Below are positions 5,900-37,230 of a stretch of DNA of 64,000 nt, piece by piece. The position numbers were made by a program, and so were the translations under genes. Source of the DNA: Nemertoderma westbladi. Its lineage: Eukaryota; Animalia; Xenacoelomorpha. The notes beneath the pieces are model-generated. The model did not search any database. It saw only the letters and a program-made list of their open reading frames with translations, and was not told where the DNA came from. Each line of letters starts with the position of its first letter. Position 1 is the stretch's first letter. Where the stretch lies: the NCBI GenBank assembly GCA_032718475.1, contig JAUCBJ010007955.1, positions 1 through 64,000 on the forward strand. The letters are read 5' to 3'.

Positions 5900-6219
5900 T
5901 GATTATTCGTCGGCTTGTATACAAGAGTTGCCACACCTGATGTTGTTGATCTGTTTTATCAGGAAGGTATTTTTTCACGAATTAGTTAATGTACCGCTTT
6001 TCTCAATTAAACTCATAAGAAGTTGTTTCCGAGTTTGAGCCTCTAGTTTCCAGAAAGTATCTCGAATATTGATATGATGTTGTTCATCAATGCTTACTTT
6101 ACAAGACAATTTGCACTTATCAGAACAACCTACCGGACGCAGTGAATAATTCAGGACATCTCTAAGCAACTAAGCAAGTGATATCTGTATAGAATATTCA
6201 CAGAATGTTGAATGTGTTG
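5900..6219 (-). repeat. Inverted copy of the 640-966 repeat
   Basis: Reverse complement aligns with 640-966 with only a few substitutions and one small indel region. Confidence 0.85.
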
Positions 6220-17490: not shown

Positions 17491-18100
17491 ATACCTTTCA
17501 TATTAACTTATACATTTCAGATTAACTTGATACATTTCAGATTAACTTGATACATTTCAGATTAACTTGATACATTTCAGATTAAGTTGATACATTTCTG
17601 ATTAACTTGATACATTTCAGATTAACTTGATACCTTTCAGATTAACTTGATACATTTCAGATTAACTTGATAAATTTCAGATTAACTTGATATATTTCAG
17701 ATTAAGTTGATACATTTCAGATTAACTTGATACATTTCAGATTAACTTGATACATTTCAGATTAACTTGATAAATTTCAGATTAACTTGATACAATTCAG
17801 ATTAACTTGATACTTAGCAGATTAACTTGATACTTGGCAGATTAACTTGATACTTGGCAGATTAACTTGATACTTGGCAGATTAACTTGATACATTTCAG
17901 ATTAACTTGATACATTTCAGATTAACTTGATACATTTCAGATTAACTTGATACATTTCAGATTAACTTGATACATTTCAGATTAACTTGATACACTTCAG
18001 ATTAACTTGATACTTGGCAGATTAACTTGATACCTTTCAGATTAACTTGATACATTTCAGATTAACTTGATAAATTTCTGATTAACTTGATATATTTCAG
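17491..18100. repeat. 20-bp minisatellite ATTAACTTGATACATTTCAG, left part (~30 units)
   Basis: Direct tandem array that resumes at 36718 after the LTR element. Confidence 0.97.
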
Positions 18101-18227
18101 TATAGAATTATATTCTCTAAATGCCGTGGATTTTCAAAATTTTATTTTATTCGAATTAACTTTGTAAAAGATTGCTTTGAATCCTCATTTGTATTTGTTA
18201 TATCTATTGTACGCCTATCGGTCAAGT

Positions 18228-18314
18228 GGTTCAGTAGCTCAGTCGGTAGAGCGTTGGAAATTATATGTGTAGTAGGTATTGAGTTCGAATCCTAGTAAGT
18301 GCGAATTATTTTTT
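18228..18314 (+). ncRNA. tRNA-derived Pol III cassette in the LTR (A box, B box, T-run); not a functional tRNA
   Basis: GGTTCAG-TAGCTCAGTCGGTAGAGC (D-arm/A box), GAGTTCGAATCC (B box, 18281-18292), then TTTTTT. Acceptor and anticodon stems do not pair. Confidence 0.7.
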
Positions 18315-18371
18315 GTACAGAATTTCAACTCATTTAAATTAACCGCTACAAATTAATTGCATTTGTCTGTA

Positions 18372-18643
18372 CCAATGAGACTGTAGTTATTTGATTGTAA
18401 CCAATGTCGTGCAAGTTATATATTAGCTGGACCAATAGCTATCTTTAAAACCCTGTTAGAACCTATAGAACAATCGAGAATTTTCTCGATTGATTGCGGC
18501 ACAAATTTAGTATATAAAGGTGCGATTTGTTCATTAGTTATTCACAATCTTATACTTCTCAGATTATCTTATCTTAGCAATATTCTGTCGTGCTTAGTTT
18601 ATTTCAGATTACATTGTATTATAATTATATCTTCTGTAATAAA
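18372..18643 (+). promoter_or_regulatory. Putative LTR Pol II promoter and polyadenylation signal
   Basis: CCAAT at 18372, 18401 and 18432 (~30-bp spacing), TATATAAA at 18511, AATAAA at 18638. Confidence 0.55.
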
Positions 18644-20001
18644 GTCAGAATTATCGCTAATCTGCTTTTTTCTATCTGTTTTACCATGATTCACTACGGT
18701 GAACAAAGTTAAGGACAGGATGGCCGGCTAGAAGATCGGGCCGCAGCAATGAACAGGAACATCACAGGAATGTAGACGAGAGACAACCCGCAATACCATC
18801 TTGAGTTGTTCGCCCATTGCCTGAAAGGTTAGACAGCGTTCGACATCTCGCTACCTAAGCGTAAGACCAAAAGATCAAAGGTAGAAGTAGTGGCACGCTG
18901 TGAGCCTAAAATTACATCTTAGGGACTGTACTGTCTTGATTCAGGAAAACCCACAGTAGACCTTCATATTCCTACAGGTAGAGGGAAAGAGCAGGCAGAT
19001 ACTAGTACGCAGATAGGACGTAGGCACACCGGTACGAAGCATACAAATTGGTAGGGTGCAGCAAACTGTACGCCTAACTCTTGCTAAGTGCAGGTGTGTG
19101 TGCGACTATTTGTAGTACGACAGTGTCCATTGCATTAGGACTTGTAGGCTAGGGGGGTTGCTGTGTTTTCACCTGAATTGGGATTGTACCGTTCAGGCGG
19201 TAGGGCAGTTTACAGCTAGGCGCAAATAAATTGAGGCTATTAGGGATACTAACATCTACCGTGTCCCCGCCAACGCCCTAATAGGAAGTTACCCGGACTA
19301 CCTGGGTGACTAAAATTCTAGATAGGAGCCAGGATAACTATTAGTAACTGTACGCCTACAGTAGTAAACTAACACATCTCTTCTCAGTATTAGGGACCTG
19401 GTACCTAAAAATTGCCGAATTCTGGGCGTAGCATTAACCTTATGCCTGAATTTGAGTCCTGGAAATACGCAAGAGGGGAAGGAACCTTGCTATTCGTGAG
19501 TATTGGACCTACAAGTTACAAAATTATAATATTCGTAAAATGCACACCGTACCCAGTAATTATATATGTGAAGGAGCAAAACTGTTTTTGACCGTTCAGA
19601 ATTAACACACGCGCGTTAGAAATTATTTACACCTCAAAATATATAAAATTAACTTTTGTCCGTACTGTGCTTTGCCCGCTAGTTAGACATCTCCAAATCT
19701 CTGCCTGTACCTAGCTAGCGTCTCTTCGCCCAAACCATATAAATCACACCGCGGCAAAGTGTACGAGCCCCTTAGTCCGTCAGTGAGTCAGCCTGATTTT
19801 AGGATTCGCTGCGCGGGATTTTGTTTTATCGAAGTTTGTCTGCTCGTAGACTGTTTTCTGCCTCACCGGTTATAAGAGATCAATACTGCAATATATTCGC
19901 TTACTTAGAGTTTACTGTTTTGGTGAGAAGGTCGGATTTATGATTTGATTCACAAACTTTACAGTAGGATATTGCAGGTATTGTTACCGTCTCTTCATAT
20001 A

Positions 20002-20012
20002 GTAGGAATATG
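20002..20012 (+). promoter_or_regulatory. Atypical primer-binding site GTAGGAATATG, complementary to LTR 18965-18975
   Basis: Directly abuts the 5' LTR end; lacks the TGG that would pair with a tRNA CCA; exact reverse complement of CATATTCCTAC. Confidence 0.55.
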
Positions 20013-20810
20013 TTTTACTGAACTACGGTACGGTAGGACTAAAGTTATTTGAAAATTTTGTATTTTGAGGTAAAAATTTATATTTGATTAGCTAAGTGCT
20101 AATTTTTTGAAATAAAATTTGATTTGAACCGCGTGTAATATATTTTTGGAATTGAATACCGGTGTTTAAAAGGGTTTAAATACCATATTGTACCGGTACA
20201 AAATTTTTCGTAAAGTAAAACCTAACTCTTTTGTTTTTCAGGATTCAGAACTCATTTCTAGACTGTAACGGGAGCAAGACCGTGTTTAGCAAGTTTGGGA
20301 GATAGATAACTCAACAACTTTGGTTGGGAAAATCGCGCTTCGTCCGCAACGCTGGAAACGGAAAGGTTCACGTTCGGTTTGTATCTGGGAATCTGTTTTT
20401 CTGGAGAATTATTGGAGTGGGTGAGTTCGAAAAGTTGCATAAATAAGTTAGGCATTACCGTATTAGTTAAAATTATTGTGGGTTCCACTGTCTCAAGTAT
20501 TTATGCATTCCGTATGATTTCTTTGTTCATTGCTGAATTAGTCCGTATTATTGTATTTAATTTACCTTTTGATAACGCATATCGTTATCCGATTTATTTG
20601 TTATAAAATTGGCCGCTAGGCTAATTTTATTATATACTTATTCCGTGACATTTATTTGCTGTAAAATTGGCCGTTTAGGCTAATTTTATCCATCTGCTAT
20701 AAAATCGGCCGGTAGGCTAATTTTATATGACTGTAATTAGTACCGTTTAGATATAAATTCGGTAAACTCGATACTTTGACACTCACTCTACTTGACTTAC
20801 AACTACCGAA

Positions 20811-23800
20811 ATGAGTGACAAACCAGACTATACGAAAAATACACCTACCGACTATGACTCATGCGACGGAGATAAGTCAGCAGCGGAAGAACAACAGGGG
20901 AAGACTCGCGAGCCTACCGAACCTACACCGTGTGCGTCACCAGTACATCCAACGGGAGTACCGGATGCCGTAGTACGAGGCGACGGCAGGACCGAGGACT
21001 TTCTAACTGTTCCGCAACCTAGGTATAGGGAAACGGACATGGTAAGTTCAGCAGGAAGTCAGGAAAGCGTTGTTAGGAGCGTCGGTGGATACATGGCGCA
21101 TATTACCAGGAGTATTGGAGAAGGCCAACGCATATTAGACGGGTTGACTGCTCCGATGTCTCGATTCGAGTTCTACACCCTCCAGGTTAGAGTACAGAGT
21201 AAAGTATATAAGTCCGTAGATAATCTAGTTGGCCTACAAGATCTAGCTAGACAGAGACAGGACATGGATACTCAACTTAGAATCCTCGAGAAACTAATGA
21301 TCGCTAGAGAGAAACTGATTCAGTTTAAGTCGACGATTAGACAGATACAACAGGAACAAGCGGACCAGTTGTTAGGTGAGTCAGTTTCGGACGAATTATT
21401 ACAGCCCGAGGAAGAACAGGAACTGTACCGACTGGATGGACAATTGAAACATCTGACGGACCACTTACGTATGTGCGGCGAGGATGTCGGAGATTGGGAA
21501 ACCGTGCCGGAATATACGAGGGAAACTTCACCCGTACGAATCGAATCGGCACCGGGAATACTGAATCAATCACTGGTGAGTATTCGCAGCGAGATTAACG
21601 AGGTAAGCATGGTCACGTCAGAAGTTGCTCGACAACAGCAACAGTTCTACAGACAGCAACACGAGATGGAAGAACAAACTCAACTGCTAATGATACAAAC
21701 AGCGGTAGAGGAAGAGAAAATACGTGTTGCGAATGTAGCGAGAATCTCTCATCTGCAGGAACAAGCCGAACTCGAAGCGGCCGAAATGGAAAGGTTAGAG
21801 TTGGACATTGCCCAACAAGCGGCAGCGGCCGAGTTAGCGCAACGAACGGCAACAGCCGAGTTAGAGCGACAAACGGCAGCGGCAGCGGCAGCGGCCGAGT
21901 TAGAGCGACAAACGGAAACGGCAGAGTTAGAAAGAAAAAGGTTAGTTTCAGAAGCCAGAGTCGAGATGAAGACACGGCAAATAAAAGCCCAACAAGCGAT
22001 ACGACAAGCAGAGTTCGAGGCGCAACAACAACAAACGGAACAACGAGAAAAGGAAGTTAAACTTCGTTTCGAACTTGAGAAAAGGGCGAGAGAATTAGCC
22101 GAAACCAAGGAAAATCTGGATCTTCTAGCCCGTGATCGATCGATGAGATCTCGTGACGGACATGATTTGGACCAGATAGAGGTAAGGCACCGCCAAATCC
22201 AGGAACGACTAAAGGAAGGTTCGATAGGAGCACCTGGACGGGAACGACAATTAGTAAAGGACTTATGTCAAAGATTCCCTCAAGTAACCCCTATGTTCGC
22301 ACCAGTTACAACTAAGGAATCTGTTTCGATTGCGGGTAGTAGTGATATTTCTCCTATCCATGGTGCGACGGAACACAGGTTTGTTATTCCGGACAAGTTT
22401 ACACCGCCAAGAGCAACGTCGTCGCCTATTCCGAAAGTCAAGGTAAGTAACCCACCGATTACAGATCGTAGTAGTTTGTTGACTGGACCTGCACTACTGA
22501 CGACTAAACAGGTGAGTCCACCTTTGACGCCAAAACCTGTTATACACTACGCTTACCCAATGACTTTTAGGCCAACAAGGCCTTTGGATTCAAATGCTGT
22601 CATTCGACCACGACTTCAGTTTACATCGCAATCTACGACTTCGAGGAAGACTTGTGAGCCTACCGAACAACGGAGAACAGTGGATACGCGACCGTTCAAC
22701 CAGTGTACATCGCAATCTACGACTTCGAGGAAGACTTGTGAGCCTACCGAACAACGGAGACTAGTGGATACGCGACTGTTCAACCAGTGTACATCGCAAT
22801 CTACGACTTCGAGGAAGACTTGTGAGCCTACCGAACAACGGAGATCAGTGGACGATGTTCCGAAACGGAATGTTAGAATTCGTACGACACAACGGACGCG
22901 AGCACGTCGACCACCATATCCAGATGATAGTAGTACTTCGAGCGAATCGGATTACCCGAAACGCGAGGTATTTAGAACAGGGGCGGCCGATGAATATAAA
23001 CGTGAGCGTTCAGACAACTCCTTTGCAGACAATCCTCCACAGAATACACCAACACAGAAGGCGTTACAACCAACGGACGCAATCAGTACACAACAGTTCG
23101 CCGACATCCTGCGACCAGTTGTTAACAAGTTGGCTCAGATTGAGGAGCGTCTGGAGGAAGTTCAAACCGACAGTTCGAGGAACACTGAGTTCGAACACAA
23201 TAGACACCCGAAGGAACCACAAAGACCGGTACCTTCAAAAAACACATCGTATCAGGGAAAAGCGCCAAGAAGGGATATCAACCAGTGTACCAACCAAGGA
23301 CGCGAAACTCTGAACGTTGCCGAGGAGATAGCGAAATTCGCAGCGAGACAAGGATTGCCGGTACAACAACCACCGAAGTTTTCTGGTAGTTCAAAACACT
23401 GGCACACATTCGTAGACTATATTGAATCTCAGATCGCCGTGTGCGCCTTTACATCACGGGAGAAGTTTAATTACCTGCTTCAAACGTTGTCAGGAGAACC
23501 TAAACGTTTGGCAGAGACCTTCGTTGGTGTACCGGACGCCTTCGAACTAGCGTACGATCGTTTAACTTCGATATACGGAGGTACAGTCAGTATGGCCAGG
23601 TCAGTAATAGAGGAACTCTGTAAGGGAGGGGCTATCACTAAACCCGTCGACTTATTAAAACTGGCCGACGAGATAAAGAACGCTATCACTACTTTAAGAT
23701 CCATTGGACAACTTGACTACGGGAATACCCCTACAGTCCTATTAAAGATCATAGGACGACTCCACCATCGACTTCGTCGGGAGTGGAGAAAGATCGAATA

Positions 23801-26800
23801 CCAGCGAGAAGAGCGGGGTGGATTCTTAAAACTGGAGGATGTGTACCTTTTGATATCCAGGGAAGCAGTTGTAGAGACTCGATCTAACTACACTGACCAG
23901 CACATCGTGGCAGAAGGAATCACATTGCCATCCTCCAACCGACAAAAACCCCAGACAACATCCACTAAGACGGCCACTTACACCACACCGACGGAATCAC
24001 GACAATTCTCGGACGGTAGTAGGGTATCTGCGCCCATTGGAACAAAACAGACGAGACAACAACTCAGTACCGACTTCAGCGGCTGCCAATACTGCGAGCA
24101 TTTAGGCAAGCGGTATATCGGTCACAAGTTACGAGGTTGTCGACAATTTCGCGAGTTGAACTCAGAAGAACGACGGCTGCAAATACGGCCATTGGACTCT
24201 TGTTGGCGGTGTACGCAACACGGACACGTCCGTAAAGATTGCCCAAATACCGACACTTGTCCATCCTGTGGACGCAACCACGACGGTCTGCTCCACACAG
24301 ACAGCCACACACCGACAAAACGCTTCGCCAGGGAACACCCGGAAGCAGCAGCGAGATGTGATGCAGCCTACAGAAAACGAGAATCGAAAACGACTCCGAC
24401 CTTCGTGACCCATATTGAGGATTGCTTCTCTGAACAACCCGGATCGTCGGACGAAGAGTCAGAAGACGACGACGTATATTCGGATGGAGATGAACAGCCA
24501 TCGATCGCGCTTCTGACTACTGACCAACTGAAGGGATTCAGTGTAATTCCGATTAAGATTACTGGCACAAAGTGGAGTAAGAGAATCTACGCTATTCTAG
24601 ATTCAGCCTCATCTCACAGTTACGTGGATGAAAAGATAGCTGACGTCGTGACGGATCTCAGACAAGGTAAGCGTGTCAGTTATACCGTAAGTAGTATGCA
24701 CGGACAGCGTGCAATACCAGTGACACGAGTCAAGTTAAACTTAGACTCTCTTCTTCCGAAATCGCAACACAGCGAGAGGGAGAGGTCTTTGTTACCCTTC
24801 AAGGATTTGACCTTTGCGGCCACAAAAGACTTTAGTAACCTACTAGGTCCGGTCCCAGAACAATCCTTGGAGGACCGTAAGTATTTCAGACACCTTGGTG
24901 TACCTGAATGTCCTGTCAATTATAGATCGGTAGCCATGCTGATCGGGACGGACCAATTCAACCTACATCAAGTGTGGGAAACCAGACCATCGGCAGTCGT
25001 AGCGGGAAACGCATACGCCTGTAGAATGCCGATAGGGTGGTATACTCGAGCGCCTGTGCGCACACTAGACGTAAGTGACGAGGAAGACGATGTACGAAGT
25101 ACATGTAGTTTATTAACTACAAATTCAATCCATTCCTTTTCACGCGACGTGGACCATACTACCTTACAGACAAAACATAACAGACATGTAACTAGTATGA
25201 TAAGTCACAAGGAGCAGCTAACCCACCAGGTGAGTTTAGAACTTGGGGAGAAGACGAGTCAGCTAGAGATTCCATCGACGACAGATGATAACGCCGGAAG
25301 GCTTGCGAGTCTACCTACCCCAACAACCTCAACAATGCCCGTCGAGATCGATGATGACGCGTTGAGAAATCACCAATTGGAACAAGCTGTATTGGACAAA
25401 GAATTAACGGAGAAGACTATCAGGTGGTTAGAACAAGATACAGCTGAACCTGGTAGCTACGAACCTTGTATGTCGGAACAAGAGAAACAATCTTTGAGGA
25501 TCATGGAAGATACTATCCGCCAGACGAAAGACGGACATTATGAGGTAGGGATGTTATGGCGTAGCCAAAGTCCTAAACTCATAAATAACTATCCACTGGC
25601 TCTAAGACGTCTACACTCAATACGGCAACGTCTATTAAAGGACGAGAAAGCCCATCTGCAGTACAACACTCAGATGGAGACGTATTTGACTAAGGGATAC
25701 GCTATCCGAATGACTAACCCGGAGATAGTGACTGACCAAACATATTACTTGCCACATCACTTTGTGAGACACCCCGACAAACCAGACAAAGTACATGTAG
25801 TCAATGACTGTGCGGCTCTGTTTGAGGGAATGTCCCTCAATAGCGAGTTGATGGATGGACCAAACATGAATAATTATCTTATGGGGGTGATTATGCGCTT
25901 CCGTCAGCGTCAAGTAGCTTTTACTTGTGACGTTGAAGCGATGTTTCACCAAGTGAGAGCGTTAGAGCGAGACAGAGACAGTTTGCGGTTCCTCTGGTAC
26001 CCAGAAGGAGACTTAAGTCTACCACCGGCGACTTACCAAATGCAAGTTCGCGTTTTCGGTGCCAGGGACAGCCCAAACTGCACGATGTACGCCCTAAAAC
26101 AAGCCGCTAGGGATCAGAAACACCTGTATGACCCAGAGATAATTAGGATTGTGGAACGTGACTTTTACGTCGACGACGGATTACAGAGTTGCGACACAGT
26201 AGAACGTGCTACAACAGTAGCACATCAATTACGGGACTGCTTAGCGGGCGGAGGTTTTAACCTCACCAAATTCGCCTCAAACAGTGCCGAATTAGTAGAC
26301 TCATTCGGAACGACTGAGCGTGGAGGTGGTGACATAGACCTAGAGTTCGAACCACTACCGACGACCAAGGTGTTGGGGCTCTTTTGGGACCCAAACACGG
26401 ACAACTTTCGAGTGAAAGTGAGACTGGACAGTCAAGAAAACACACTGACAAAGAGATCATGCTTGTCAAAATTGAGCCGATTGTTCGATCCATTAGGATT
26501 CATCAGTCCAATAATACTGCAAGCCCGCATTTATATGCGCAGTATTTGGAAGGATGGACTGACATGGGACGAGCCGATCTCATCAGACCAAGTGGACTTA
26601 TGGAAGACCTGGGAGGCGGAATTATCTTCGCTAGAGGATTATTCCATACCCAGAGTCTACTTTCCATTACAAACAACATTTCCTGACAACTTGGAATTAC
26701 ATTGTTTTTCTGACGCCAGTGACAACGGTTTTGGTGTGGCAGCGTACTTGCGCAGACAAGTAGACTCAGCAGAATTCGATGTTTCGCTCATTACTTCTAA

Positions 26801-29570
26801 GGCAAAAACAATGCCTACTAAGTATATGACGACACCACGAGCTGAGCTACAAGCCGCAACCCTGTCAACCACCATCGTGAACCTCATACAGACAGAACTA
26901 CAGTCAAGTTTACAGATATTTTATTGGACTGACGCGACGTTGGTTTTATTTTACATAAACAACGACACACTTGAATTCAAGACATTCGTAGCTAACCGTC
27001 GCGCAGAAATTCTAGACCGTTCAATAAAAGAGGATTGGCGACATTGTCCCGGACCACAAAACCCAGCTGATATTGCGTCGCGAGGAATGATGCCTGAGGA
27101 ATTCTGTAAACCGGAAAACAAAGAATTTTGGCAACACGGGCCCCAATTCTTGCAGAAATCGACACAAGATTGGCCTCCGTTATACGACAACAAGTCTAAC
27201 ACTATCCCTAAGGACGCCGAAATCAAGAAACCAAAAAAGGGGAAGGCAAAGAAAAGGACGACGGCGGCAAAACTCAAGAAAAAACCGAAGGCGAAATGGA
27301 AAGATATAACTTCAAAGGTCAAGAGAGGAAGACTTGCGAGCCTTTCTACACCAGACATATCGCCAGACGGTCAACCAGACACGTTACTAGACGGTCAACC
27401 AGACGTTTTGCCAGACATATCACAAAATGTTCTACCAGACACTAGTAACATATTGACAAACAGTAAAGCCGCAGTTTCCCTATTGGAGCAGCCTTCTATT
27501 GACAAACAACCAGATACGTTACCAGACGTATCGCCAGACACATTACTAGACAGTCGACTAGACATTTTGTCAGAAACATCACAAAATGTTCTACCGGACA
27601 TTAGTAATGTATCGACTAACAGTAAAGCCGCAGTTTCCCTATTGGAGCGGCCTTGTATTGACAAACTACCAATTTTGACACACTTGAGCAACCATAAGCA
27701 CGGTGAAACCTCATGTATTACAGATGTGGGTAGTACCTACGCTAATGTAAATACAGGTGTTACTCTGCGCTCAAGAGACATACCAAACTTGCAACCTATG
27801 GTGAGACCTGGGATTAATGTCGGCAGAAAATTAAGTTTACCGAAACCCAGTGACCCCATAGAGTTCAAACCACCATTAACGATCGACTTACAAAGTACTG
27901 ACAATCAAGGTAAGAAGACGAAGAAGGACAAATTACTTGTAGACCCGGACGGATCAACAGTCAACAAGGGAATACCTACCGGCGGACCCGTGGGCCCTTC
28001 TAGTAATTCAAAACCTTCCAAAATCTCCATTGACTTACCTGATGACGTCACAAATACTCACGTCGACCGGATTATAAACTTAACAGACTCTTGGTCAAAC
28101 GCTTGCCGAAAGTTAGCGTGGATTGTACGTTTTGTACAATACGTTAAAGGCAAACGCGACTTTACACGTCGACTTACATTGGCTGAGATTGACAGGTGTG
28201 AGATTAAATTAATTCGCCATTACCCACTGCGATATTTCGCGCGCGAATTCACATCCATAAATCAAGGTCAACCAATCAAGTCGTCACCAATACTGAGTTG
28301 GAGTCCGATTATTTATAATGGCTTAATTTGTCATAAATCTCGGCTTCAAAACATTGACTTTAACACAAACTTTAGGTACCCAATAATAATACCGCAACAT
28401 CACGAACTACAACGTGCAATGATACTGGACGCACATTTACATCTGAAACACGCTGGAAGACATCACTGTCTTTCCTACTTACGTACAAGATTTGTATTAA
28501 TTAGACCCAGTAAAGCGTTAAGTTCAGTGACACGTACGTGTATTATTTGTAAAAAGGTACATTCTAGAATAGGTACCCAAGAAATGAGTGAACTTCCACA
28601 AGCACGACTTCAAGCATTCAGACCACCTTTTACAGAGACTGGAATTGATTGCTTTGGTCCCATACATACGAAACGTGGACGTATACTAGTAAAACGCTGG
28701 GGACTGATTTTCATATGTATGTCCAGTAGGGCAGTTCATATTGAACGTGTGATGGATCTTTCCACCAACGCGTTTATACTAGCACTGCGGCGATTTATCG
28801 CTAGACGCGGACTAGTGAAATGCTTGTACTCAGACCAAGGGACAAACTTTGTTGGTGCTCGGAATGAGATTGCTAGAGCCTTTAAGAAATTAGATCATGA
28901 TCAAATCTCGAACGAACTACAACCTCACAAGATTGTTTGGAAGTTTAATCCTCCGGATAGTCCTTGGAGGGGCGGAGTCTGGGAGAGATTGATTAGATCT
29001 ATCAAAACGGCAATGGCAAAGGTCATTCCAGTAAACCACATACTGACAGACGACCAACTGACAACACTGTTTGTTGAAATCGAGGCAATACTAAATACTA
29101 GACCAATAGTATTAGTACCCGATGACAAACAATCTCAGTTTGCTTTGACACCGGCGCACCTGCTTATGCAGGCACCGACCACATTGACACCTATTTCTAT
29201 TCCAATAGAAAGCGACAGCTACGGTAGAAAAGCGTGGAAAATCACGCAACTACTGGCTAACAAATTCTGGGAAATATGGCAAAACCATTATTTGCCCTCT
29301 ATTTCTGCCAGAACAACATGGTACAATAACACCCGCGCATTAAAGCCGGGAGATCACGTGCTGTTAGCGGAAGTGAATCTAAAAAGACGCTTCTGGATAA
29401 CAGGTGTAATTTTAGCCACACATCCATCTATGGATGGAGTGACAAGAACTGTGACGGTACGGACAATTGACGGTCGTACAGTAGACAGACCGACTCAACG
29501 TCTCGTACTTCTTGAAGAGACTCGTAATGAGTCTGGAGACTACAAATCTCCACCTAATACTAGTAAATAA
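20811..29570 (+). CDS. BEL/Pao gag-pol polyprotein, 2919 aa
   Basis: Coiled-coil N-terminus; PPKFSG..W..F gag motif (~23370); three Cys/His knuckles (~24083-24296); protease ILDSAS (~24595); RT YLPHH...FYVDD (~26166); Pao RNase H FSDAS...PRAELQAA...WTDA (~26709); integrase H..H/CxxC and IDCFGP...SDQGTNF...GGVWERLI. Confidence 0.95.
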   Translation: MSDKPDYTKNTPTDYDSCDGDKSAAEEQQGKTREPTEPTPCASPVHPTGVPDAVVRGDGRTEDFLTVPQPRYRETDMVSSAGSQESVVRSVGGYMAHITRSIGEGQRILDGLTAPMSRFEFYTLQVRVQSKVYKSVDNLVGLQDLARQRQDMDTQLRILEKLMIAREKLIQFKSTIRQIQQEQADQLLGESVSDELLQPEEEQELYRLDGQLKHLTDHLRMCGEDVGDWETVPEYTRETSPVRIESAPGILNQSLVSIRSEINEVSMVTSEVARQQQQFYRQQHEMEEQTQLLMIQTAVEEEKIRVANVARISHLQEQAELEAAEMERLELDIAQQAAAAELAQRTATAELERQTAAAAAAAELERQTETAELERKRLVSEARVEMKTRQIKAQQAIRQAEFEAQQQQTEQREKEVKLRFELEKRARELAETKENLDLLARDRSMRSRDGHDLDQIEVRHRQIQERLKEGSIGAPGRERQLVKDLCQRFPQVTPMFAPVTTKESVSIAGSSDISPIHGATEHRFVIPDKFTPPRATSSPIPKVKVSNPPITDRSSLLTGPALLTTKQVSPPLTPKPVIHYAYPMTFRPTRPLDSNAVIRPRLQFTSQSTTSRKTCEPTEQRRTVDTRPFNQCTSQSTTSRKTCEPTEQRRLVDTRLFNQCTSQSTTSRKTCEPTEQRRSVDDVPKRNVRIRTTQRTRARRPPYPDDSSTSSESDYPKREVFRTGAADEYKRERSDNSFADNPPQNTPTQKALQPTDAISTQQFADILRPVVNKLAQIEERLEEVQTDSSRNTEFEHNRHPKEPQRPVPSKNTSYQGKAPRRDINQCTNQGRETLNVAEEIAKFAARQGLPVQQPPKFSGSSKHWHTFVDYIESQIAVCAFTSREKFNYLLQTLSGEPKRLAETFVGVPDAFELAYDRLTSIYGGTVSMARSVIEELCKGGAITKPVDLLKLADEIKNAITTLRSIGQLDYGNTPTVLLKIIGRLHHRLRREWRKIEYQREERGGFLKLEDVYLLISREAVVETRSNYTDQHIVAEGITLPSSNRQKPQTTSTKTATYTTPTESRQFSDGSRVSAPIGTKQTRQQLSTDFSGCQYCEHLGKRYIGHKLRGCRQFRELNSEERRLQIRPLDSCWRCTQHGHVRKDCPNTDTCPSCGRNHDGLLHTDSHTPTKRFAREHPEAAARCDAAYRKRESKTTPTFVTHIEDCFSEQPGSSDEESEDDDVYSDGDEQPSIALLTTDQLKGFSVIPIKITGTKWSKRIYAILDSASSHSYVDEKIADVVTDLRQGKRVSYTVSSMHGQRAIPVTRVKLNLDSLLPKSQHSERERSLLPFKDLTFAATKDFSNLLGPVPEQSLEDRKYFRHLGVPECPVNYRSVAMLIGTDQFNLHQVWETRPSAVVAGNAYACRMPIGWYTRAPVRTLDVSDEEDDVRSTCSLLTTNSIHSFSRDVDHTTLQTKHNRHVTSMISHKEQLTHQVSLELGEKTSQLEIPSTTDDNAGRLASLPTPTTSTMPVEIDDDALRNHQLEQAVLDKELTEKTIRWLEQDTAEPGSYEPCMSEQEKQSLRIMEDTIRQTKDGHYEVGMLWRSQSPKLINNYPLALRRLHSIRQRLLKDEKAHLQYNTQMETYLTKGYAIRMTNPEIVTDQTYYLPHHFVRHPDKPDKVHVVNDCAALFEGMSLNSELMDGPNMNNYLMGVIMRFRQRQVAFTCDVEAMFHQVRALERDRDSLRFLWYPEGDLSLPPATYQMQVRVFGARDSPNCTMYALKQAARDQKHLYDPEIIRIVERDFYVDDGLQSCDTVERATTVAHQLRDCLAGGGFNLTKFASNSAELVDSFGTTERGGGDIDLEFEPLPTTKVLGLFWDPNTDNFRVKVRLDSQENTLTKRSCLSKLSRLFDPLGFISPIILQARIYMRSIWKDGLTWDEPISSDQVDLWKTWEAELSSLEDYSIPRVYFPLQTTFPDNLELHCFSDASDNGFGVAAYLRRQVDSAEFDVSLITSKAKTMPTKYMTTPRAELQAATLSTTIVNLIQTELQSSLQIFYWTDATLVLFYINNDTLEFKTFVANRRAEILDRSIKEDWRHCPGPQNPADIASRGMMPEEFCKPENKEFWQHGPQFLQKSTQDWPPLYDNKSNTIPKDAEIKKPKKGKAKKRTTAAKLKKKPKAKWKDITSKVKRGRLASLSTPDISPDGQPDTLLDGQPDVLPDISQNVLPDTSNILTNSKAAVSLLEQPSIDKQPDTLPDVSPDTLLDSRLDILSETSQNVLPDISNVSTNSKAAVSLLERPCIDKLPILTHLSNHKHGETSCITDVGSTYANVNTGVTLRSRDIPNLQPMVRPGINVGRKLSLPKPSDPIEFKPPLTIDLQSTDNQGKKTKKDKLLVDPDGSTVNKGIPTGGPVGPSSNSKPSKISIDLPDDVTNTHVDRIINLTDSWSNACRKLAWIVRFVQYVKGKRDFTRRLTLAEIDRCEIKLIRHYPLRYFAREFTSINQGQPIKSSPILSWSPIIYNGLICHKSRLQNIDFNTNFRYPIIIPQHHELQRAMILDAHLHLKHAGRHHCLSYLRTRFVLIRPSKALSSVTRTCIICKKVHSRIGTQEMSELPQARLQAFRPPFTETGIDCFGPIHTKRGRILVKRWGLIFICMSSRAVHIERVMDLSTNAFILALRRFIARRGLVKCLYSDQGTNFVGARNEIARAFKKLDHDQISNELQPHKIVWKFNPPDSPWRGGVWERLIRSIKTAMAKVIPVNHILTDDQLTTLFVEIEAILNTRPIVLVPDDKQSQFALTPAHLLMQAPTTLTPISIPIESDSYGRKAWKITQLLANKFWEIWQNHYLPSISARTTWYNNTRALKPGDHVLLAEVNLKRRFWITGVILATHPSMDGVTRTVTVRTIDGRTVDRPTQRLVLLEETRNESGDYKSPPNTSK
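22620..22855 (+). repeat. 84-bp in-frame tandem repeat (x3) inside gag
   Basis: TSQSTTSRKTCEPTEQRR repeated three times. Confidence 0.9.
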
Positions 29571-30234
29571 TTAGGAGTTTACAAATAGATTTCCACGTAC
29601 CTGTACACTGTAGTAAGGACAGCGGTAGAATTCCATTGTCTTTATATGTGAACATTGAGGGTAGTACCCTTATGTGTCACATAGGAGCAGGATTTGTAGG
29701 TATAAGAAATGGAATTCTACTTGGAACTCACAATATTGAGACATTTTCGAAAATTTAGACAATCCATTTGGATTTGAAAATTTTTTAAAAAATTTTCTCC
29801 AGTGAATAGATTTCAGGGTACAGTCGGGTGGAACTTAAAATTAGAGAAACAAGAGAGGAAGACTTGCGAGCCTTTCTTAAAATTTTAATTAAATTTTACA
29901 CAGTCTTGTTTCAATAAGTTACGTCAATAAATAGACTCCCCTATATTTATTTACTAATTCTTGACTGCTTATTTTCTGATAATAGTTTGGGATCAAAAAG
30001 TGAGTATTTTAGACTCACGGCCAGTTTAGCCCAAATTCGTTTTTATTTCGGCAAAAAATTTTAGATAAGAAGCAGCGTGTCATTAAAGAAACCCTAGATC
30101 TTAGGCTATGGGTAGGAGGTTAGAGCGTTGTCGAGCCCAAAGGGCAGACGAAACTCTCACGTCTCCTCACAACTAACTACAAACTCTGTTGTATTCCCTC
30201 TAGTAGTAATGATTATGTAACTACACCCCTAATT

Positions 30235-33200
30235 ATGGAGAAAGGGATACAAGGAGAGCCGAGATGGGGATATGATATCCAAGAGGAGGCAGCAGCGCCA
30301 TTCGAAAGATTTGGAGCCAAGGACTATACTATATTCGGTATAAAAGAATTATCGGAAAGTACAGCGAAACTCGCGAGAACTAAATATGACTCGAACGTAT
30401 TAAAGAGAAGACAAAATGCATTAAACGAAAGAATCGAAAGTTTGCGCAAAACCTTCAACGAACTTTACCCGTACGACGCTTTGTGTGATACGGGAGACAT
30501 TAGCGAAGACCCCGATACTGAAATTAGTCGTTTGTATCATACCATGCAATACCTAAAGGCGCACGAACCTATGCCCGCGGTAAGAGATGAATTTGATGGA
30601 ATGCATCTTTACAGACGAACTCGAGGGGACGATAGAGAAACCAAGGAAGCATTTTCAGTTTATAAACTTTATTATCAATGCGGTTCTTGTATGCGCGAAC
30701 AACGAAATGCGATTCCGATGCGTTTGAATAAGGAAAATCCCGAACCGATATTGGCGAGGTGTTCGAATCATCAACAACTACGCTACCAGGAAGGAGGGTA
30801 TCCTTTATCGAATCCATATCATTCATTTGCTATGACCGGACCAAAGGCGGGAGAAACTGTCATTTACCCATCTAAGGTTGTTGAACCCGATGTATTCGAA
30901 CTTACGCTGGACGAGGCAAATCAGTCAACCCGCGAAAAGAAAGAAGCTCTTAGCCTATACAGAGCCTACAAGGCTTTCGAGAAAGGTGAGATGGAAGAAT
31001 GGGGTGGAAGACTCGCGAGCCTACCTTGCCATTGGACGTCACACGATCAAACTTCAGCTAAGGAGATGACACCGGAAGTTTTCGAGAGCATAAACTTTGC
31101 TCAAAACGTTATTCAGAGACTACAGATTGCATCCCCGGAGAGGACAAGAGAAATGCAACCGTATAGTACTTCAACTACGAAACCATTGAGTACGACACTC
31201 AACTTTCCTATTAGTATACCAGTCCGACAGGATACAACGTACGAAATACCCATCGTGGATCATCCAGAAATCATTTCAAACTTGGAGTTTCTTCCTGCAG
31301 TTGTTTTTAGCGATATGAGTAAGATATATGATTTACGTAGACATATTACTCAAAAGGTCGTGTACAACGTTCCACCTCATATTCAAGACTTTAAGGAACT
31401 GGATAGAGCTGGTGCCGATATAGCTCCGAGTAATCTGAAAGGATATCTAACCAAGACGATTCGTTTATGGATTGGAACCGGAACCTTCGAGTCGGATACA
31501 GATATTGCCGCGGATTGGCGAGGTAAGGTTATTCGTTTCGAAGATGATAAGGATATAGAGAAGATTTGGCAACCTTCGGAAGAATTGTTGGATGAATGGA
31601 ATAGAACGTTTAGATCGTTTCAGGAAAACGGTTACATGTTTTACGACAACGAGGGCGGCAGTCATCAGCAGAGTTTGACTTCTAAGACTATACAGATTAG
31701 AGCGGCGGACGGAGTCCTGCACGTTTTCAGTAGACAGAGGAGCGACAAACGAATGCCGATACCTCCAGCGAATACAAGGCGACACCATCTTATCACCGAC
31801 ATAGTAAAGAAGATGGACCAAGCTTGTAATATCGACGCTAGAATGCTACCGAAGATGGTAAGAAACATGATTTTAGATAAAACTGTTGTAAAGATTGGAT
31901 CAGGAGTAAGGGAGGACTTAATTAGCGACTTCGCCGGCATGACGGACAGCGATGACCGACTACCGACACCTTACGTCGACACTCGACCTCTTATTTTGTG
32001 GTCTATAGAACAGGGATATTTTCGTGAGTACAATACTCAGAAGACTGGAACTGGATACATTTCCTACCTGTTATTCAATTGGGATTATAAGGAAAATAAG
32101 AGAAACAAGTATATTGAAACTTATGGAGAAGGTGATACTCCAGATATGAGTGAGTTTGAATCACAGCTTAAATGGAGAGGATGCGTGTATTGGGCTATTA
32201 CGTCACCTCCAAGAGCGGTCTTACAATATTATTTAGCAATAGAGTCGTCAGTAAATGTTTGCCTAATCGCCGACATTGTGTCTCGGACTCTCAAAAGACA
32301 TCCACTTTGTCTCGGAGAAGATCATACGTTCTACATGGAAGGGAGAATTCGTACCGACGTGTTTAGACGATTCCTTGAACCCTTCTACAACTCCGACGCT
32401 CAGTGTAATGCCTTTACTCGAGCAGGATTTAGTATATTTCGAGACGTGTATCTTCGCTGTGCGGGATCTCTTATCGAAAGACCATCTATGTTTACATTGT
32501 TACCCTATGAAGGAGAACGTATCGTGGAGATTACGGAAGAATCACGGCAGACGCGCGCGCCTATCGGTCACCTCGGTGATGATTTCGAAGTAACTACTAC
32601 GATCGCTGACGATCCTTTAGAGGAACTTCTTGAGATAGAAAGGAACCTCCCGAAGAAATCTCAGACGGAGATTCGACAACTTGAAGCAACAGATGCTATA
32701 GTTTGTATACAACCTTCAGAAACCTACCAACCCATAGACCCAGATGATTACGATTATAGTATGGGAGGAAGCGCTCGACCGATTGGAGATCTTATATACG
32801 AACGAGTGTGGTACCCTGCCAATACGATGTGTAGTAAATGTGGCGTCGCTGGACATCATATGACGAAGTGCAGTGGAAAGCACATTACTACGACTCAGCT
32901 AATCTGTGGATGGTGTGGGGATCAAGGGTCTCATACCTTTTATACTTGCTGGAGATTTATGGCTCAATGTACTTATTGCAATATAAAAGGACATCGAGCA
33001 TCTGAATGCCAACTAAGAGACATACCTTATGAACACGAATCTGTAAAACTCGTGAGGAAGTTATTTGATGAGTGGGAAGATTTAGCCGACGAACATGTAT
33101 CGGCACAAAGAAGACGGTTTCCGATGAGAGCGCATCTCGGATTTTGGGCGGTAAATCCTCAAACGATGATGTCGGAAGGATATATCTCCGCTATGCCCCA

Positions 33201-33960
33201 ATATGACGAACTTATCGAGGTTGTCGATATTTTGCCCCACGACAGTGGATTCCGAGTGGTGCGCGAGTATCTACTACAGATTCACCCGGATAACAAAAAC
33301 ACGTGGAATTTTCAGAAAGTCGTTAACCGCATTACGTATGGTGAATTCGATCGTTTCCGAACTGAAAAACGGAATAAAGGAGCTTGGTTAACCGTCGCAT
33401 GGGCGTACCGAGCCGCGTTTTACCACAAACGTATACGAGCGAGCGTATTCGAGGAAGAGGAGGTCCTAGAGGCGACGAATATACCAGCCACTCCGGTTGC
33501 GCCGTCTGCACGTCACCCTCGGGAGGACGGGCAGGGTAGGATCATACGGGTCCAGAAAGTGGGCCAACAATTAAAGAAAATTATTAATATAGAAGAACGC
33601 AAGGGAGTTGAGCCGACCATTCGAGTTACTCGGGATACGTCATCGCTTCCAAGAGAACCAGTAGGAGGATCGGGACATACACCAGCTGATCAACAGGGGG
33701 CGCAAGCTACTCTTGGGTCTGCGTCGTCCGCCTTTCGCGCGTTCCCAGACGTTCTACCAACTGTAGTGACAACTGATCGGTCACGAGGAATCGGTCGAGG
33801 TTTTGGGATGCCAAATAGACGAATTTGCGAGGAAATAGTCGCACTGTCTCTCAACGTCCCAAGTAAACCAGTGACTCGCCCCATTAGTCCCATATCGCGA
33901 GCAAAGTCACCTGTGCGCAGTTTTCGAGGACGCGGCAGGGCTCGATCCACTAAGCGATAA
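30235..33960 (+). CDS. Extra retrotransposon ORF, 1241 aa: DEDDy (WRN/EXD/RNase D-like) 3'-5' exonuclease-like domain plus zinc knuckles
   Basis: ExoI FYDNEG..TIQI; LPKMVRNMILDKTVVKIGSGVREDL (ExoII); YVDT; ExoIII-like W...VLQYYLAIE; knuckles CSKCGVAGHHMTKC, CGWCGDQGSHTFYTC, CTYCNIKGHRASEC. The uninterrupted ORF lies between pol and the 3' LTR. Confidence 0.8.
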   Translation: MEKGIQGEPRWGYDIQEEAAAPFERFGAKDYTIFGIKELSESTAKLARTKYDSNVLKRRQNALNERIESLRKTFNELYPYDALCDTGDISEDPDTEISRLYHTMQYLKAHEPMPAVRDEFDGMHLYRRTRGDDRETKEAFSVYKLYYQCGSCMREQRNAIPMRLNKENPEPILARCSNHQQLRYQEGGYPLSNPYHSFAMTGPKAGETVIYPSKVVEPDVFELTLDEANQSTREKKEALSLYRAYKAFEKGEMEEWGGRLASLPCHWTSHDQTSAKEMTPEVFESINFAQNVIQRLQIASPERTREMQPYSTSTTKPLSTTLNFPISIPVRQDTTYEIPIVDHPEIISNLEFLPAVVFSDMSKIYDLRRHITQKVVYNVPPHIQDFKELDRAGADIAPSNLKGYLTKTIRLWIGTGTFESDTDIAADWRGKVIRFEDDKDIEKIWQPSEELLDEWNRTFRSFQENGYMFYDNEGGSHQQSLTSKTIQIRAADGVLHVFSRQRSDKRMPIPPANTRRHHLITDIVKKMDQACNIDARMLPKMVRNMILDKTVVKIGSGVREDLISDFAGMTDSDDRLPTPYVDTRPLILWSIEQGYFREYNTQKTGTGYISYLLFNWDYKENKRNKYIETYGEGDTPDMSEFESQLKWRGCVYWAITSPPRAVLQYYLAIESSVNVCLIADIVSRTLKRHPLCLGEDHTFYMEGRIRTDVFRRFLEPFYNSDAQCNAFTRAGFSIFRDVYLRCAGSLIERPSMFTLLPYEGERIVEITEESRQTRAPIGHLGDDFEVTTTIADDPLEELLEIERNLPKKSQTEIRQLEATDAIVCIQPSETYQPIDPDDYDYSMGGSARPIGDLIYERVWYPANTMCSKCGVAGHHMTKCSGKHITTTQLICGWCGDQGSHTFYTCWRFMAQCTYCNIKGHRASECQLRDIPYEHESVKLVRKLFDEWEDLADEHVSAQRRRFPMRAHLGFWAVNPQTMMSEGYISAMPQYDELIEVVDILPHDSGFRVVREYLLQIHPDNKNTWNFQKVVNRITYGEFDRFRTEKRNKGAWLTVAWAYRAAFYHKRIRASVFEEEEVLEATNIPATPVAPSARHPREDGQGRIIRVQKVGQQLKKIINIEERKGVEPTIRVTRDTSSLPREPVGGSGHTPADQQGAQATLGSASSAFRAFPDVLPTVVTTDRSRGIGRGFGMPNRRICEEIVALSLNVPSKPVTRPISPISRAKSPVRSFRGRGRARSTKR

Positions 33961-34019
33961 AAGGGAGGGCAAGGGTGGACGGAAGACTCGTGAGCCTTTC
34001 TTATGATTTTGTGATTTAT

Positions 34020-34600
34020 TTGAATTTATATTTATATTTGTGTTTATTCCGAACTTAAGCAATTTGTATTGTTCCGAATTTATGAAATTTAGAAATAAGA
34101 ACTCATATTTAGTAAGATTTATAGTTAGTAAGAATTTATATTTGCAAGATTTATATTTTGTAAGAATTTATATTTTATATTTGTGATTATTCCGAACTTA
34201 TGCAATTTATATTATTCCGAACTTATGTAATTTATATTGTTCCGAATATTATGCAATTTACATTTTATAGGCAGTATTACAGTGAAACAGAAAGTAAGAG
34301 TAGATGGAAGACTCGTGGGCCTTTCTTATAGTTTTATTTGTAAAATGTTATATTTTGTATTTAGAAAGTTTTATAGTCAGAAAGTTTGTGCTTAGAAAGA
34401 CTCATTTTTGTAATTATTCCAAACTTATGCAATCTACATTTAGGTACGAAAGTATTTGTAATTACTTGAATTTATGCAATATTTGAGATGCAATAGTAGA
34501 TGGAAGACTCGTGAGCCTTTCTTATTGTTTTCATTTATTTGTATTTGTAATTGTTTGAATTTATGCAATATTGAGATGCAATAGATTTATATTGGTGAAT
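34020..34600 (+). repeat. AT-rich 3' UTR repeats (TTATTCCGAACTTATGCAATTTATATT-like)
   Basis: Six or more degenerate copies between the ORF2 stop and the 3' LTR. Confidence 0.7.
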
Positions 34601-34816
34601 TTAATTTAGATTTATATTGTACTTACTTAGTAAAGCCTTAAATACGTAAAGTTTGAATTTGTAATTATTTTGTATCGAATCATTACGTAGAAAGGAAGTA
34701 TTATTTGAAATTTAATTGTAAATATGTAAGTACGCCCTAAGTATCCTATAGTTTGATTGATTATTGGTGAAAACCGTATATTTTATGCACGATAATATCC
34801 TGTTTTCATGGAGCGG

Positions 34817-36717: not shown

Positions 36718-37230
36718 TTCAGATTAAGTTGATACATTTCAGATTAACTTGATACATTTCAGATTAACTTGATACATTTCAGATTAACTTGATAAATTTC
36801 AGATTAACTTGATACAATTCAGATTAACTTGATACTTGGCAGATTAACTTGATACTTGACAGATTAACTTGATACATTTCAGATTAACTTGATACATTTC
36901 AGATTAAGTTGATACATTTATGATTAACTTGATACATTTCAGATTAACTTGATACATTTATGATTAACTTGATACATTTCAGATTAACTTGATACATTTC
37001 AGATTAACTTGATACATTTCAGATTAACTTGATACATTTCAGATTAAGTTGATACATTTATGATTAACTTGATACATTTCAGATTAACTTGATACATTTC
37101 TGATTAACTTGATACATTTCAGATTAACTTGATACATTTCAGATTAACTTGATACATTTCAGATTAACTTGATACACTTCAGATTAACGTGATACATTTC
37201 AGATTAACTTGATATTTTTCAGATTAACTT
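36718..37230. repeat. 20-bp minisatellite, right part (~25 units), running into the exon's splice acceptor
   Basis: Same unit as 17491-18100. Confidence 0.97.

What the first reader, a model, noticed from the sequence alone, without database searches (positions are those of the whole stretch)
18965..20012. PBS position is an exact 11-nt complement of a site inside the element's own LTR
The bases right after the 5' LTR (20002-20012, GTAGGAATATG) are the reverse complement of CATATTCCTAC at 18965-18975 (35681-35691 in the 3' LTR). The duplex ends exactly at the LTR boundary, so a primer 3' end at C18975 would copy the last LTR base first. A given 11-mer is expected about 0.0005 times in 1.9 kb at uniform composition, somewhat more in AT-rich DNA. 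Tf1 self-priming also uses 11 nt, but there the primer is the transcript's 5' end. Here the site is ~860 nt into the LTR, although TCATATT fits a YYANWYY initiator. One of the few LTR-LTR differences is the base just 3' of the 11-mer.
Basis: partly seen in the sequence, partly recalled or inferred. Interest (0 to 1): 0.85.

Follow-up and report, generated by a model that had tools for sequence, protein, structure and literature searches.

The report
Self-primer site in BEL/Pao retrotransposon
A young, intact BEL/Pao jumping gene has no tRNA landing site; the 11 letters at that spot pair exactly with a stretch of its own terminal repeat, as in most relatives examined, so it likely starts DNA copying with a piece of its own RNA, which is not how this family is described in the literature searched.

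Summary
Confirmed. The element is an intact BEL/Pao LTR retrotransposon (18101-36717; 1901-nt LTRs, 6 differences; 5-bp target duplication). The 11 bases after the 5' LTR lack TGG and exactly complement 18965-18975. Taken alone this is modest (12 of 5000 shuffles).

Relatives make the case. In 22 BEL/Pao loci with repeat-defined LTR ends, the bases after the LTR pair with the element's own LTR over 11 or more nt in 14, against 1 of 486 swapped pairs. Sister families show compensatory changes. In most relatives the partner exists only across a predicted GT-AG intron junction; two carry it contiguous, as here. The window shares the group's GT start and mid-LTR position. It differs in a 1-kb loop, predicted to be closed by a helix starting right after the primer, beside a U5 hairpin.

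Self-priming in some form is about 0.8. The transcript start, the cut and the priming are untested, no host tRNAs were available, and covariation within this element's own family could not be checked. The LTR-LTR difference next to the site is a CpG-type transition, not support. This scan noted self-complementary and splice-built BEL/Pao primer sites before on other genomes; the papers searched did not.

The parts
18101..20001 (+). 5' LTR, 1901 nt, ends TATA..TATA instead of TG..CA
34817..36717 (+). 3' LTR, 6 differences from the 5' LTR
18096..18100 (+). left copy of 5-bp target site duplication TTCAG, inside a 20-nt satellite (17491-18100)
36718..36722 (+). right copy of the target site duplication (satellite resumes 36718-37230)
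20002..20012 (+). primer-binding position, no TGG (first TGG after the LTR is at 20147), starts with GT
18965..18975 (+). candidate self-primer, contiguous 11-mer complementary to 20002-20012
35681..35691 (+). same 11-mer in the 3' LTR; the transcript would have to end beyond it for strand transfer in cis (inference)
18976..18997 (+). 5' arm of a predicted long-range helix (19 bp) starting at the first base after the primer
19837..19863 (+). 3' arm of that predicted helix; it would close a loop of about 840 nt
19871..19999 (+). predicted long U5 terminal hairpin ending 2 nt before the PBS (z -3.26; 0 of 200 shuffles)
18511..18519 (+). TATA-box-like TATATAAAG, 454 nt upstream of the primer; predicted start near 18540
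18638..18643 (+). AATAAA upstream of the primer; if used in the 3' LTR it would end the RNA before the primer site (counts against cis priming)
19225..19230 (+). AATAAA 250 nt downstream of the primer; the poly(A) signal that the model needs
34810..34816 (+). short purine-rich tract directly before the 3' LTR (PPT position)
20796..29570 (+). single open gag-pol frame, 2924 aa stop to stop; BEL/Pao markers Peptidase_A17, DUF1759, DUF5641; RT YVDD, RNase H and integrase acidic motifs present
30124..33960 (+). extra ORF, 1278 aa, with a likely DEDDy-type 3'-5' exonuclease domain (about 31591-32313) and zinc knuckles
   Evidence: no HMMER homologue
18228..18313 (+). tRNA-like relic in U3 with A box and B box followed by a T run; role unknown, probably unrelated to priming
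   Evidence: not called by ARAGORN or Rfam

Best explanation
This BEL/Pao retrotransposon has an 11-nt site after its 5' LTR that pairs exactly with an internal stretch of its own LTR, and it likely primes reverse transcription with that stretch of its own RNA, which a predicted three-helix fold would bring into place and a cut, probably by its RNase H, would release. Steps: (1, shown) no tRNA-type PBS; exact 11-bp complement at the LTR edge. (2, inferred from a TATA box) Pol II starts near 18540, so the primer lies about 425 nt inside the RNA. (3, predicted) 18965-18975 pairs with 20002-20012, stacked on the helix 18976-18997:19837-19863 and the U5 hairpin 19871-19999, which shut the 1-kb loop away. 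(4, by analogy with Tf1) RNase H cuts the RNA after C18975 and RT extends that 3' end from the last LTR base. (5, inferred) minus-strand strong-stop DNA covers 20001-18976 and jumps to the 3' LTR, whose RNA must run past 35692 (poly(A) signal at the 19225 equivalent); everything upstream of the cut is then copied from the 3' LTR. It is the intron-less form of a system in which most relatives appear to assemble the primer by splicing. Self-priming in any form (this plus the first two rivals) is about 0.8.
For: Self-pairing of 10 or more nt in 17 of 22 and 11 or more in 14 of 22 relatives with repeat-defined LTR ends, against 7 and 1 of 486 swapped LTR/PBS pairs (first set; held-out set 5 of 7 at 11 or more). 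L034, with a TGG-type PBS, scores 4. Compensatory changes: L081/L082 change two junction bases and both facing PBS bases; the same pattern in L001 vs L029/L039 and among L054/L055/L076. 9 of 12 first-set duplexes start with GT on the PBS side, as in the window (background 0.086; 4 of the 9 are one clade). Contiguous, intron-less partners also occur in L028 (10 nt) and L084 (11 nt). The 23-mer right after the primer gives the best duplex of 73 LTR 23-mers with the last 200 nt (-24.4 vs next -20.6 kcal/mol; 5 of 300 shuffles there). Forcing the primer duplex in RNAs with long leaders costs only 4.8-5.9 kcal/mol and brings the 19-bp helix with it. In the 4 of 16 relatives with a TATA-like box, one such box lies 115-135 nt before the primer start, which suggests an internal primer there too. 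Tf1 mechanism: PMC7175516 passages.
Against: No RNA end, splice or cut was observed; the only run found is contigs of uncertain kind and showed no joint in the LTR. The element sits on a long, unstable branch (at most 44% identity), so its relatives are distant and covariation within its own family is untested. The primer-to-LTR-end distance is 1026 nt against 62-216 nt in the first-set relatives with a duplex of 10 or more. With leaders starting at or before 18932 the free fold sequesters the 11-mer (pair probability 0-0.03). An AATAAA lies 327 nt upstream of the primer. The long-range helix is matched by 17 of 300 shuffles when the whole LTR is allowed. A third helix downstream of the PBS is not significant (9 of 150 shuffles). 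12 of 16 relatives show no TATA-like box by my pattern, and L001 also has one 31 nt before the primer.
Confidence: 0.5

Rival explanations
1. Self-priming exactly as in Tf1: the genomic RNA starts at or just before 18965, so its first 11 nt are the primer and RNase H cuts between nt 11 and 12.
For: The duplex is 11 nt, as in Tf1. The free fold gives the duplex probability 0.9-1.0 only when the RNA starts at 18948 or later. YYANWYY match at 18964. L001 has a TATA box 31 nt before its primer start.
Against: No TATA-like box about 30 nt upstream; the clear one is 454 nt upstream. The initiator pattern occurs 20 times in the LTR. L076, L081 and L082 have TATA-like boxes 118-135 nt before the primer.
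Confidence: 0.25
2. The primer's 3' end is made by splicing chemistry rather than RNase H: a lariat or free exon ending two bases past the 11-mer (the 5' LTR reads AG|GT there) is trimmed by the extra ORF's likely 3'-5' exonuclease.
For: 18977 ranks 11 of 164 AG sites on an acceptor matrix trained on 12 relatives' introns. Residues 490-730 of the extra ORF resemble DEDDy exonucleases (30 of 30 named Atlas hits PF01612, score 0.93, 178 features). Relatives tie the primer to splice sites.
Against: The 3' LTR has G instead of the A of that AG, and CG-to-CA decay is the simpler direction. The donor at 18978 ranks 121 of 182. The exonuclease call has no HMMER or structure support. DEDDy ORFs occur in other retroelements with no link to priming reported in the passages seen.
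Confidence: 0.06
3. A host RNA (tRNA half or other small RNA) primes at 20002, and the LTR complement is chance or only part of the leader's fold.
For: By itself the match has p of about 0.002-0.006, and the scan reads very many elements. 4 other duplexes of 11 or more nt occur in 794 leader positions. ICTV describes Belpaoviridae as host-tRNA-primed. Half-tRNA primers are known in copia lineages. Host tRNAs were not available.
Against: No TGG within 145 nt of the LTR. The same position pairs with the element's own LTR in 14-17 of 22 relatives with different letters each time, which one conserved host RNA cannot explain. The window shares their GT start and relative position.
Confidence: 0.16
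4. A Pol III transcript from the tRNA-like relic in U3 (18228-18313) anneals beside the PBS and acts as primer or helper.
For: Exact A-box 18-mer (0 of 100 shuffles give two matches); A/B box pair found only in the window LTRs and in none of the 79 loci then held. Its 5' part can pair with the leader just past the PBS (-17.4 kcal/mol).
Against: A 12-bp helix with G-U pairs between the LTR and 20013-20045 is chance level (34 of 200 shuffles). Its 3' end is not complementary to 20002-20012. It does not fold as a cloverleaf (z -0.57).
Confidence: 0.03

Closest known systems
Tf1/Tf2/Tj1 and the Tf1/sushi group of Ty3/gypsy chromoviruses (self-primed reverse transcription)
   Same: PBS next to the 5' LTR complementary to 11 nt of the element's own LTR RNA, with flanking duplexes formed by LTR sequence downstream of the primer (passages of PMC7175516, PMC4600332, 10.1101/2022.12.06.519325).
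   Different: Different superfamily (BEL/Pao markers). The primer is probably internal, not the first 11 nt. The loop is 1 kb. In most relatives the primer spans a predicted intron junction. Only one of the two PBS-adjacent 'pretzel' duplexes is supported here.
Belpaoviridae / BEL-Pao LTR retrotransposons (ICTV profile PMC8742986, whole text read)
   Same: LTR-gag-pol-LTR with PR-RT-RH-IN order, Pao peptidase A17, DUF1759, DUF5641, target duplication.
   Different: ICTV gives an 18-nt PBS for host tRNA-Arg or tRNA-Gly, LTRs of 0.2-1.2 kb and genomes of 4.2-10 kb. Here there is no tRNA PBS, LTRs are 1.9 kb, the element is 18.6 kb, the ends are TA..TA, and the extra ORF looks like a nuclease rather than env.
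TAR (Houba/Osr-1) Ty1/copia and Tcn1 elements of plants, predicted self-priming (PMC6317226 passages)
   Same: Self-priming inferred from sequence complementarity outside fission yeast.
   Different: Other superfamilies; no splice-built or deep internal primer in the passages seen.
DEDDy-exonuclease ORF3 of bdelloid Juno/Vesta LTR retrotransposons (PMC5408684 passages)
   Same: Extra ORF after pol with a likely DEDDy 3'-5' exonuclease domain.
   Different: Those are rotifer clades other than BEL/Pao; no sequence homology was detected here, and the ORF here is 1278 aa with zinc knuckles.

Membership tests
BEL/Pao (Belpaoviridae) | Gag-Pol with Pao-type domains and PR-RT-RH-IN order between LTRs | tested here: met
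   Peptidase_A17 4e-42, DUF5641 4e-20, DUF1759 8e-11; motif order; 460 BEL-type hits at 1e-30 or better
BEL/Pao (Belpaoviridae) | Direct LTRs with target site duplication | tested here: met
   ends are TA..TA rather than TG..CA
BEL/Pao (Belpaoviridae) | PBS complementary to the 3' end of a host tRNA (ICTV description) | tested here: not met
   No TGG before 20147. This is a described trait rather than the phylogenetic criterion; it also fails in 20 of 22 relatives.
BEL/Pao (Belpaoviridae) | Placement in a named BEL/Pao clade | tested here: inconclusive
   Long branch; neighbours differ between the RT-RH tree and the integrase tree; no named reference elements in the trees
Tf1/sushi self-priming group | Ty3/gypsy chromovirus Pol | tested here: not met
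   BEL/Pao domains, no chromodomain hit
Tf1-type self-priming mechanism | PBS adjacent to the LTR complementary to about 11 nt of the element's own LTR | tested here: met
Tf1-type self-priming mechanism | Primer is the 5' end of the transcript | not testable with these tools
   No raw RNA reads; promoter motifs point 454 nt upstream
Tf1-type self-priming mechanism | Three-duplex 'pretzel' structure | tested here: inconclusive
   U5-side hairpin z -3.26 and an extra helix after the primer; PBS-downstream duplex 9 of 150 shuffles; prediction only
Tf1-type self-priming mechanism | RNase H cuts the RNA duplex to free the primer | not testable with these tools
   RNase H acidic motifs present; activity untested
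Splice-junction primer form seen in relatives | GT-AG intron splitting the primer inside the LTR | tested here: not met
   The 11-mer is contiguous; best junction match in the window LTR is 8-9 nt
DEDDy 3'-5' exonuclease (extra ORF) | ExoI-III acidic motifs in a DnaQ-like fold | tested here: inconclusive
   Atlas 0.93 to PF01612 clusters; candidate motifs at residues 506, 592, 702 picked by eye; no Pfam, PDB or phmmer hit; folds at pLDDT 32-33

The most novel reading that the evidence does not exclude
A broad branch of animal BEL/Pao elements primes reverse transcription with its own RNA, in most families with a primer that the host spliceosome assembles; this 18.6-kb element has replaced the intron with a folded 1-kb loop that can switch between a primer-hidden and a primer-paired state, and carries its own 3'-5' exonuclease to finish or regulate the primer end.
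Probability: 0.12. Interest if true: 0.88.

Novelty: new variant of a known kind. Interest (0 to 1): 0.7.

Why it matters
BEL/Pao is one of the main LTR-retrotransposon groups of animals; ICTV calls its replication poorly understood and assumes host-tRNA priming. If these elements prime with their own RNA, self-priming exists in a third superfamily and uses an internal primer, often built by splicing, which would tie RNA processing directly to the start of reverse transcription. It would explain why PBS searches can fail on BEL/Pao elements and give annotators a new rule. It would also mean such elements lack the site that tRNA fragments target (recalled, not checked here). The window's element is intact and shows that the intron is dispensable, so it offers a simple RNA for structure probing.

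Tried and rejected
No genome is held for the window, so other copies and host tRNAs could not be examined.

Sequencing runs: no RNA holder listed; one run of contigs, share 0.15. Laid on 18101-34815 it gave 65 pieces, mostly 95-99% alike, no joint inside the LTR, and G at 18755 as in the 3' LTR. 18976 was not among the 40 differences shown of 286. This says nothing on starts, ends or splicing, and variation at the two 11-mers in other copies remains unseen.

Viral contigs gave no relatives. Rfam and ARAGORN gave nothing relevant. The 11-mer and its complement were not found in the supplements of PMC13524379; those list 3'-end tRNA primers, so this is a weak test.

Extension of the duplex by a second segment (18940-18949 with 20013-20022, 9 of 10): 54 of 20000 shuffles by count but 231 of 2000 by energy; not relied on. 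A splice junction in the window LTR that beats the contiguous match: none. The tRNA-like relic as primer: chance level. The LTR-LTR difference as a priming mark: rejected.

Extra ORF: no homologues; both single-sequence folds were unusable, so no fold search was run. Trees do not fix the element's place (L061 left out of the first; L001, L029, L046, L082, L083, L092 left out of the second for short matches).

The blind junction scan found further candidates but has no control and two evident off-site hits (for example L025), so it is not in the counts.

Literature: 10 searches listed no paper whose title or abstract start describes self-priming in BEL/Pao. Subscription journals and Repbase Reports are not held. 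I recall a report that C. elegans Cer7 encodes its own primer, but could not check it.

Full report
What the element is. The finding lies in an LTR retrotransposon spanning 18101-36717. The LTRs are 1901 nt with 6 differences and end TATA..TATA. They are flanked by a 5-bp duplication TTCAG inside a 20-nt satellite. One 2924-aa frame (20796-29570) carries the BEL/Pao markers Peptidase_A17, DUF1759 and DUF5641, with protease, RT, RNase H and integrase motifs in that order. Its best relatives are BEL-type proteins at 37-43% identity, the named ones from marine invertebrates and fish. A second frame of 1278 aa (30124-33960) has no HMMER-detectable homologue. Its residues 490-730 resemble DEDDy 3'-5' exonucleases by language-model features (30 of 30 named hits PF01612, score 0.93). 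Both structure predictions failed (pLDDT 32-33). No host genome is held.

The observation. The 11 bases after the 5' LTR are the exact complement of 18965-18975, and the duplex begins at the first base past the LTR. There is no TGG until 20147, so a mature tRNA 3' end cannot bind here. Alone the match is modest: 12 of 5000 LTR shuffles reach 11 nt at offsets 0-3, and four other duplexes of 11 or more nt start elsewhere among 794 leader positions. 12 of 2000 shuffled PBS regions reach 11 when junctions and offsets 0-6 are allowed. The LTR-LTR difference at 18976 is real but is a CG/CA transition, as are 18755 and 18818 (3 of 6 at CpG; the element as a whole is not CpG-depleted, o/e 1.13). Both LTRs descend from one minus strand, so priming would not make them differ there. 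The initiator-like motif is one of 20 in the LTR.

Relatives. Earlier notes of this scan suggested that BEL/Pao elements in other genomes pair the PBS with their own LTR, often across a splice junction. I treated this as a lead and tested it on loci I fetched: 79 from metagenome contigs and 18 from genome contigs (animal elements inside bacterial bins). Of these 97, I used 22 whose LTR end is fixed by a repeat boundary: 15 families from the first set and 7 loci held out. The rest had no such boundary or repeated a family. Scoring allowed a contiguous match or a GT-AG junction, starting 0-6 nt after the LTR. Self-pairing reached 10 or more nt in 17 of 22 and 11 or more in 14 of 22. Swapped LTR/PBS pairs, excluding pairs inside three sets of close kin, reached these in 7 and 1 of 486. 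The held-out set gave 5 of 7 at 11 or more. The misses were L027 and L092 (9; boundaries unclear), L064 (9), L083 (8) and L034 (4), which has a TGG-type PBS; L010 has both a TGG and a 10-nt junction match. In 15 of the 17 the partner spans an intron with ordinary-looking donor and pyrimidine-rich acceptor; in L028 and L084 it is contiguous, as in the window. The letters differ between families. L081 and L082 differ at two junction bases and at both facing PBS bases; L001 versus L029/L039 and L054/L055/L076 show the same pattern. Nine of 12 first-set duplexes start with GT on the PBS side, as does the window's (background 0.086; four of the nine are one clade). The primer lies at 0.46 of the window's LTR and at 0.36-0.60 in the first set. 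Splicing itself was not observed in any of them.

Limits of that comparison. The window's element is on a long branch whose neighbours change between the RT-RNase H tree and the integrase tree. It is therefore a distant member, and its own family's covariation is untested. It also differs: the distance from primer to LTR end is 1026 nt against 62-216 nt in first-set relatives with a duplex of 10 or more, and no intron splits the primer (best junction 8-9 nt).

Predicted RNA structure. In an RNA starting at 18965 the primer duplex has probability near 1. It is joined by a 19-bp helix 18976-18997:19837-19863 that begins at the first base after the primer, and by a hairpin 19871-19999 ending 2 nt before the PBS. 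The hairpin has z -3.26 (0 of 200 shuffles). The helix is the best of 73 LTR 23-mers against the last 200 nt; 5 of 300 shuffles match it there and 17 of 300 anywhere downstream. A or G at 18976 both pair with U19863. With leaders starting at or before 18932 the free fold hides the 11-mer in a local hairpin, but forcing the duplex costs only 4.8-5.9 kcal/mol and restores the long helix. Folding over 1-1.5 kb is unreliable, so this is supporting, not decisive. Tf1-group RNAs form a three-duplex 'pretzel' (passages of 10.1101/2022.12.06.519325); here the U5-side duplex is supported and the downstream one is not (9 of 150 shuffles).

Mechanism. Most likely the RNA folds back, the 11-mer pairs with the PBS, a cut after 18975 frees a 3' end (RNase H in Tf1; passages of PMC7175516), and RT starts at the last LTR base. 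Strong-stop DNA then needs the 3' LTR RNA to extend past 35692, which fits the AATAAA at 19225 but not the one at 18638. If the earlier signal is used, priming would need the second packaged RNA. Where the RNA starts is open: the clear TATA box is 454 nt upstream, and in 4 of 16 relatives with such a box one lies 115-135 nt before the primer, though L001 also has one at 31 nt. I give 0.5 to an internal primer, 0.25 to a Tf1-like start at the primer, 0.06 to a splice-and-trim route using the extra ORF, 0.16 to a host RNA primer or chance, and 0.03 to the tRNA-like relic.

Comparison with what is known. ICTV describes Belpaoviridae as primed by host tRNA-Arg or tRNA-Gly at an 18-nt PBS and calls replication poorly understood (PMC8742986, whole text). 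Self-priming is described for the Tf1/sushi group and predicted for Tcn1 and TAR elements (passages of PMC4600332 and PMC6317226). The main BEL/Pao survey does not contain the words primer, PBS, tRNA or intron (PMC3118150, term counts); the Sinbad paper has no PBS or tRNA mention (PMC554778, passages and counts). Passages of PMC3601003, PMC13524379, PMC8220671 and PMC3286476 added nothing on this point. DEDDy extra ORFs are known from rotifer LTR elements (PMC5408684, passages). Ten searches listed no report of self-priming in BEL/Pao, but subscription journals and Repbase Reports are not held, and I did not read the bioRxiv paper's supplements.

Verdict. It works like Tf1 but is not a member of that group. 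It is a new variant of a known kind: an internal, here intron-less, self-primer in BEL/Pao. Interest 0.7.

Noticed in passing
window 18228-18313 and 34944-35029: tRNA-like relic inside U3: exact A box, B box at tRNA-like spacing, then a T run; absent from the 79 loci checked. It could be a captured SINE head or Pol III promoter.
   Followed up: partly
window 30124-33960: Extra 1278-aa ORF with a likely DEDDy exonuclease domain and zinc knuckles and no detectable homologue.
   Followed up: partly
window 18101 and 20001; L096:6020-6724; L057, L021: Non-canonical LTR ends: TA..TA here, TA..AA in L096 (which also has a short PPT and pairs weakly with the window in the integrase tree), TG..TA in L057 and L021.
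   Followed up: partly
window 20222-20248: Acceptor-like site in the leader after the PBS, with a branch-point-like motif and pyrimidine tract; the AG at 20248 ranks 2 of 164. A spliced mRNA lacking part of the leader or the PBS is possible.
   Followed up: no
window 14019-17159: Intact 1046-aa endonuclease plus RT frame of a non-LTR retrotransposon just upstream of the satellite.
   Followed up: no
window 661-969 and 5897-6204: Long inverted repeats (235 nt at 97%, 77 nt at 94%) about 5 kb apart, possibly a DNA transposon's ends.
   Followed up: no
window 22617-22852 and 27375-27671: In-frame tandem repeats (84 nt x 2.8; 159 nt x 1.9) lengthen gag-pol; one run contig lacks one 159-nt unit.
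   Followed up: no
window 39301-42823, 43451-46474, 50558-56606: Several satellite arrays with 52-, 68- and 39-nt units; the BEL element itself sits in a 20-nt satellite.
   Followed up: no
L009, L026, L054, L055, L076: One clade's junction primer contains the palindrome TTCGAA, so primer and PBS are each self-complementary and could also pair between two RNAs.
   Followed up: no
L080-L096: Animal BEL/Pao elements inside contigs of bacterial genome bins, most likely host DNA contamination.
   Followed up: no
L086:1572-6291: A second LTR element on the minus strand nested in a BEL element, with a post-LTR motif that I recall as the copia half-tRNA primer site.
   Followed up: no
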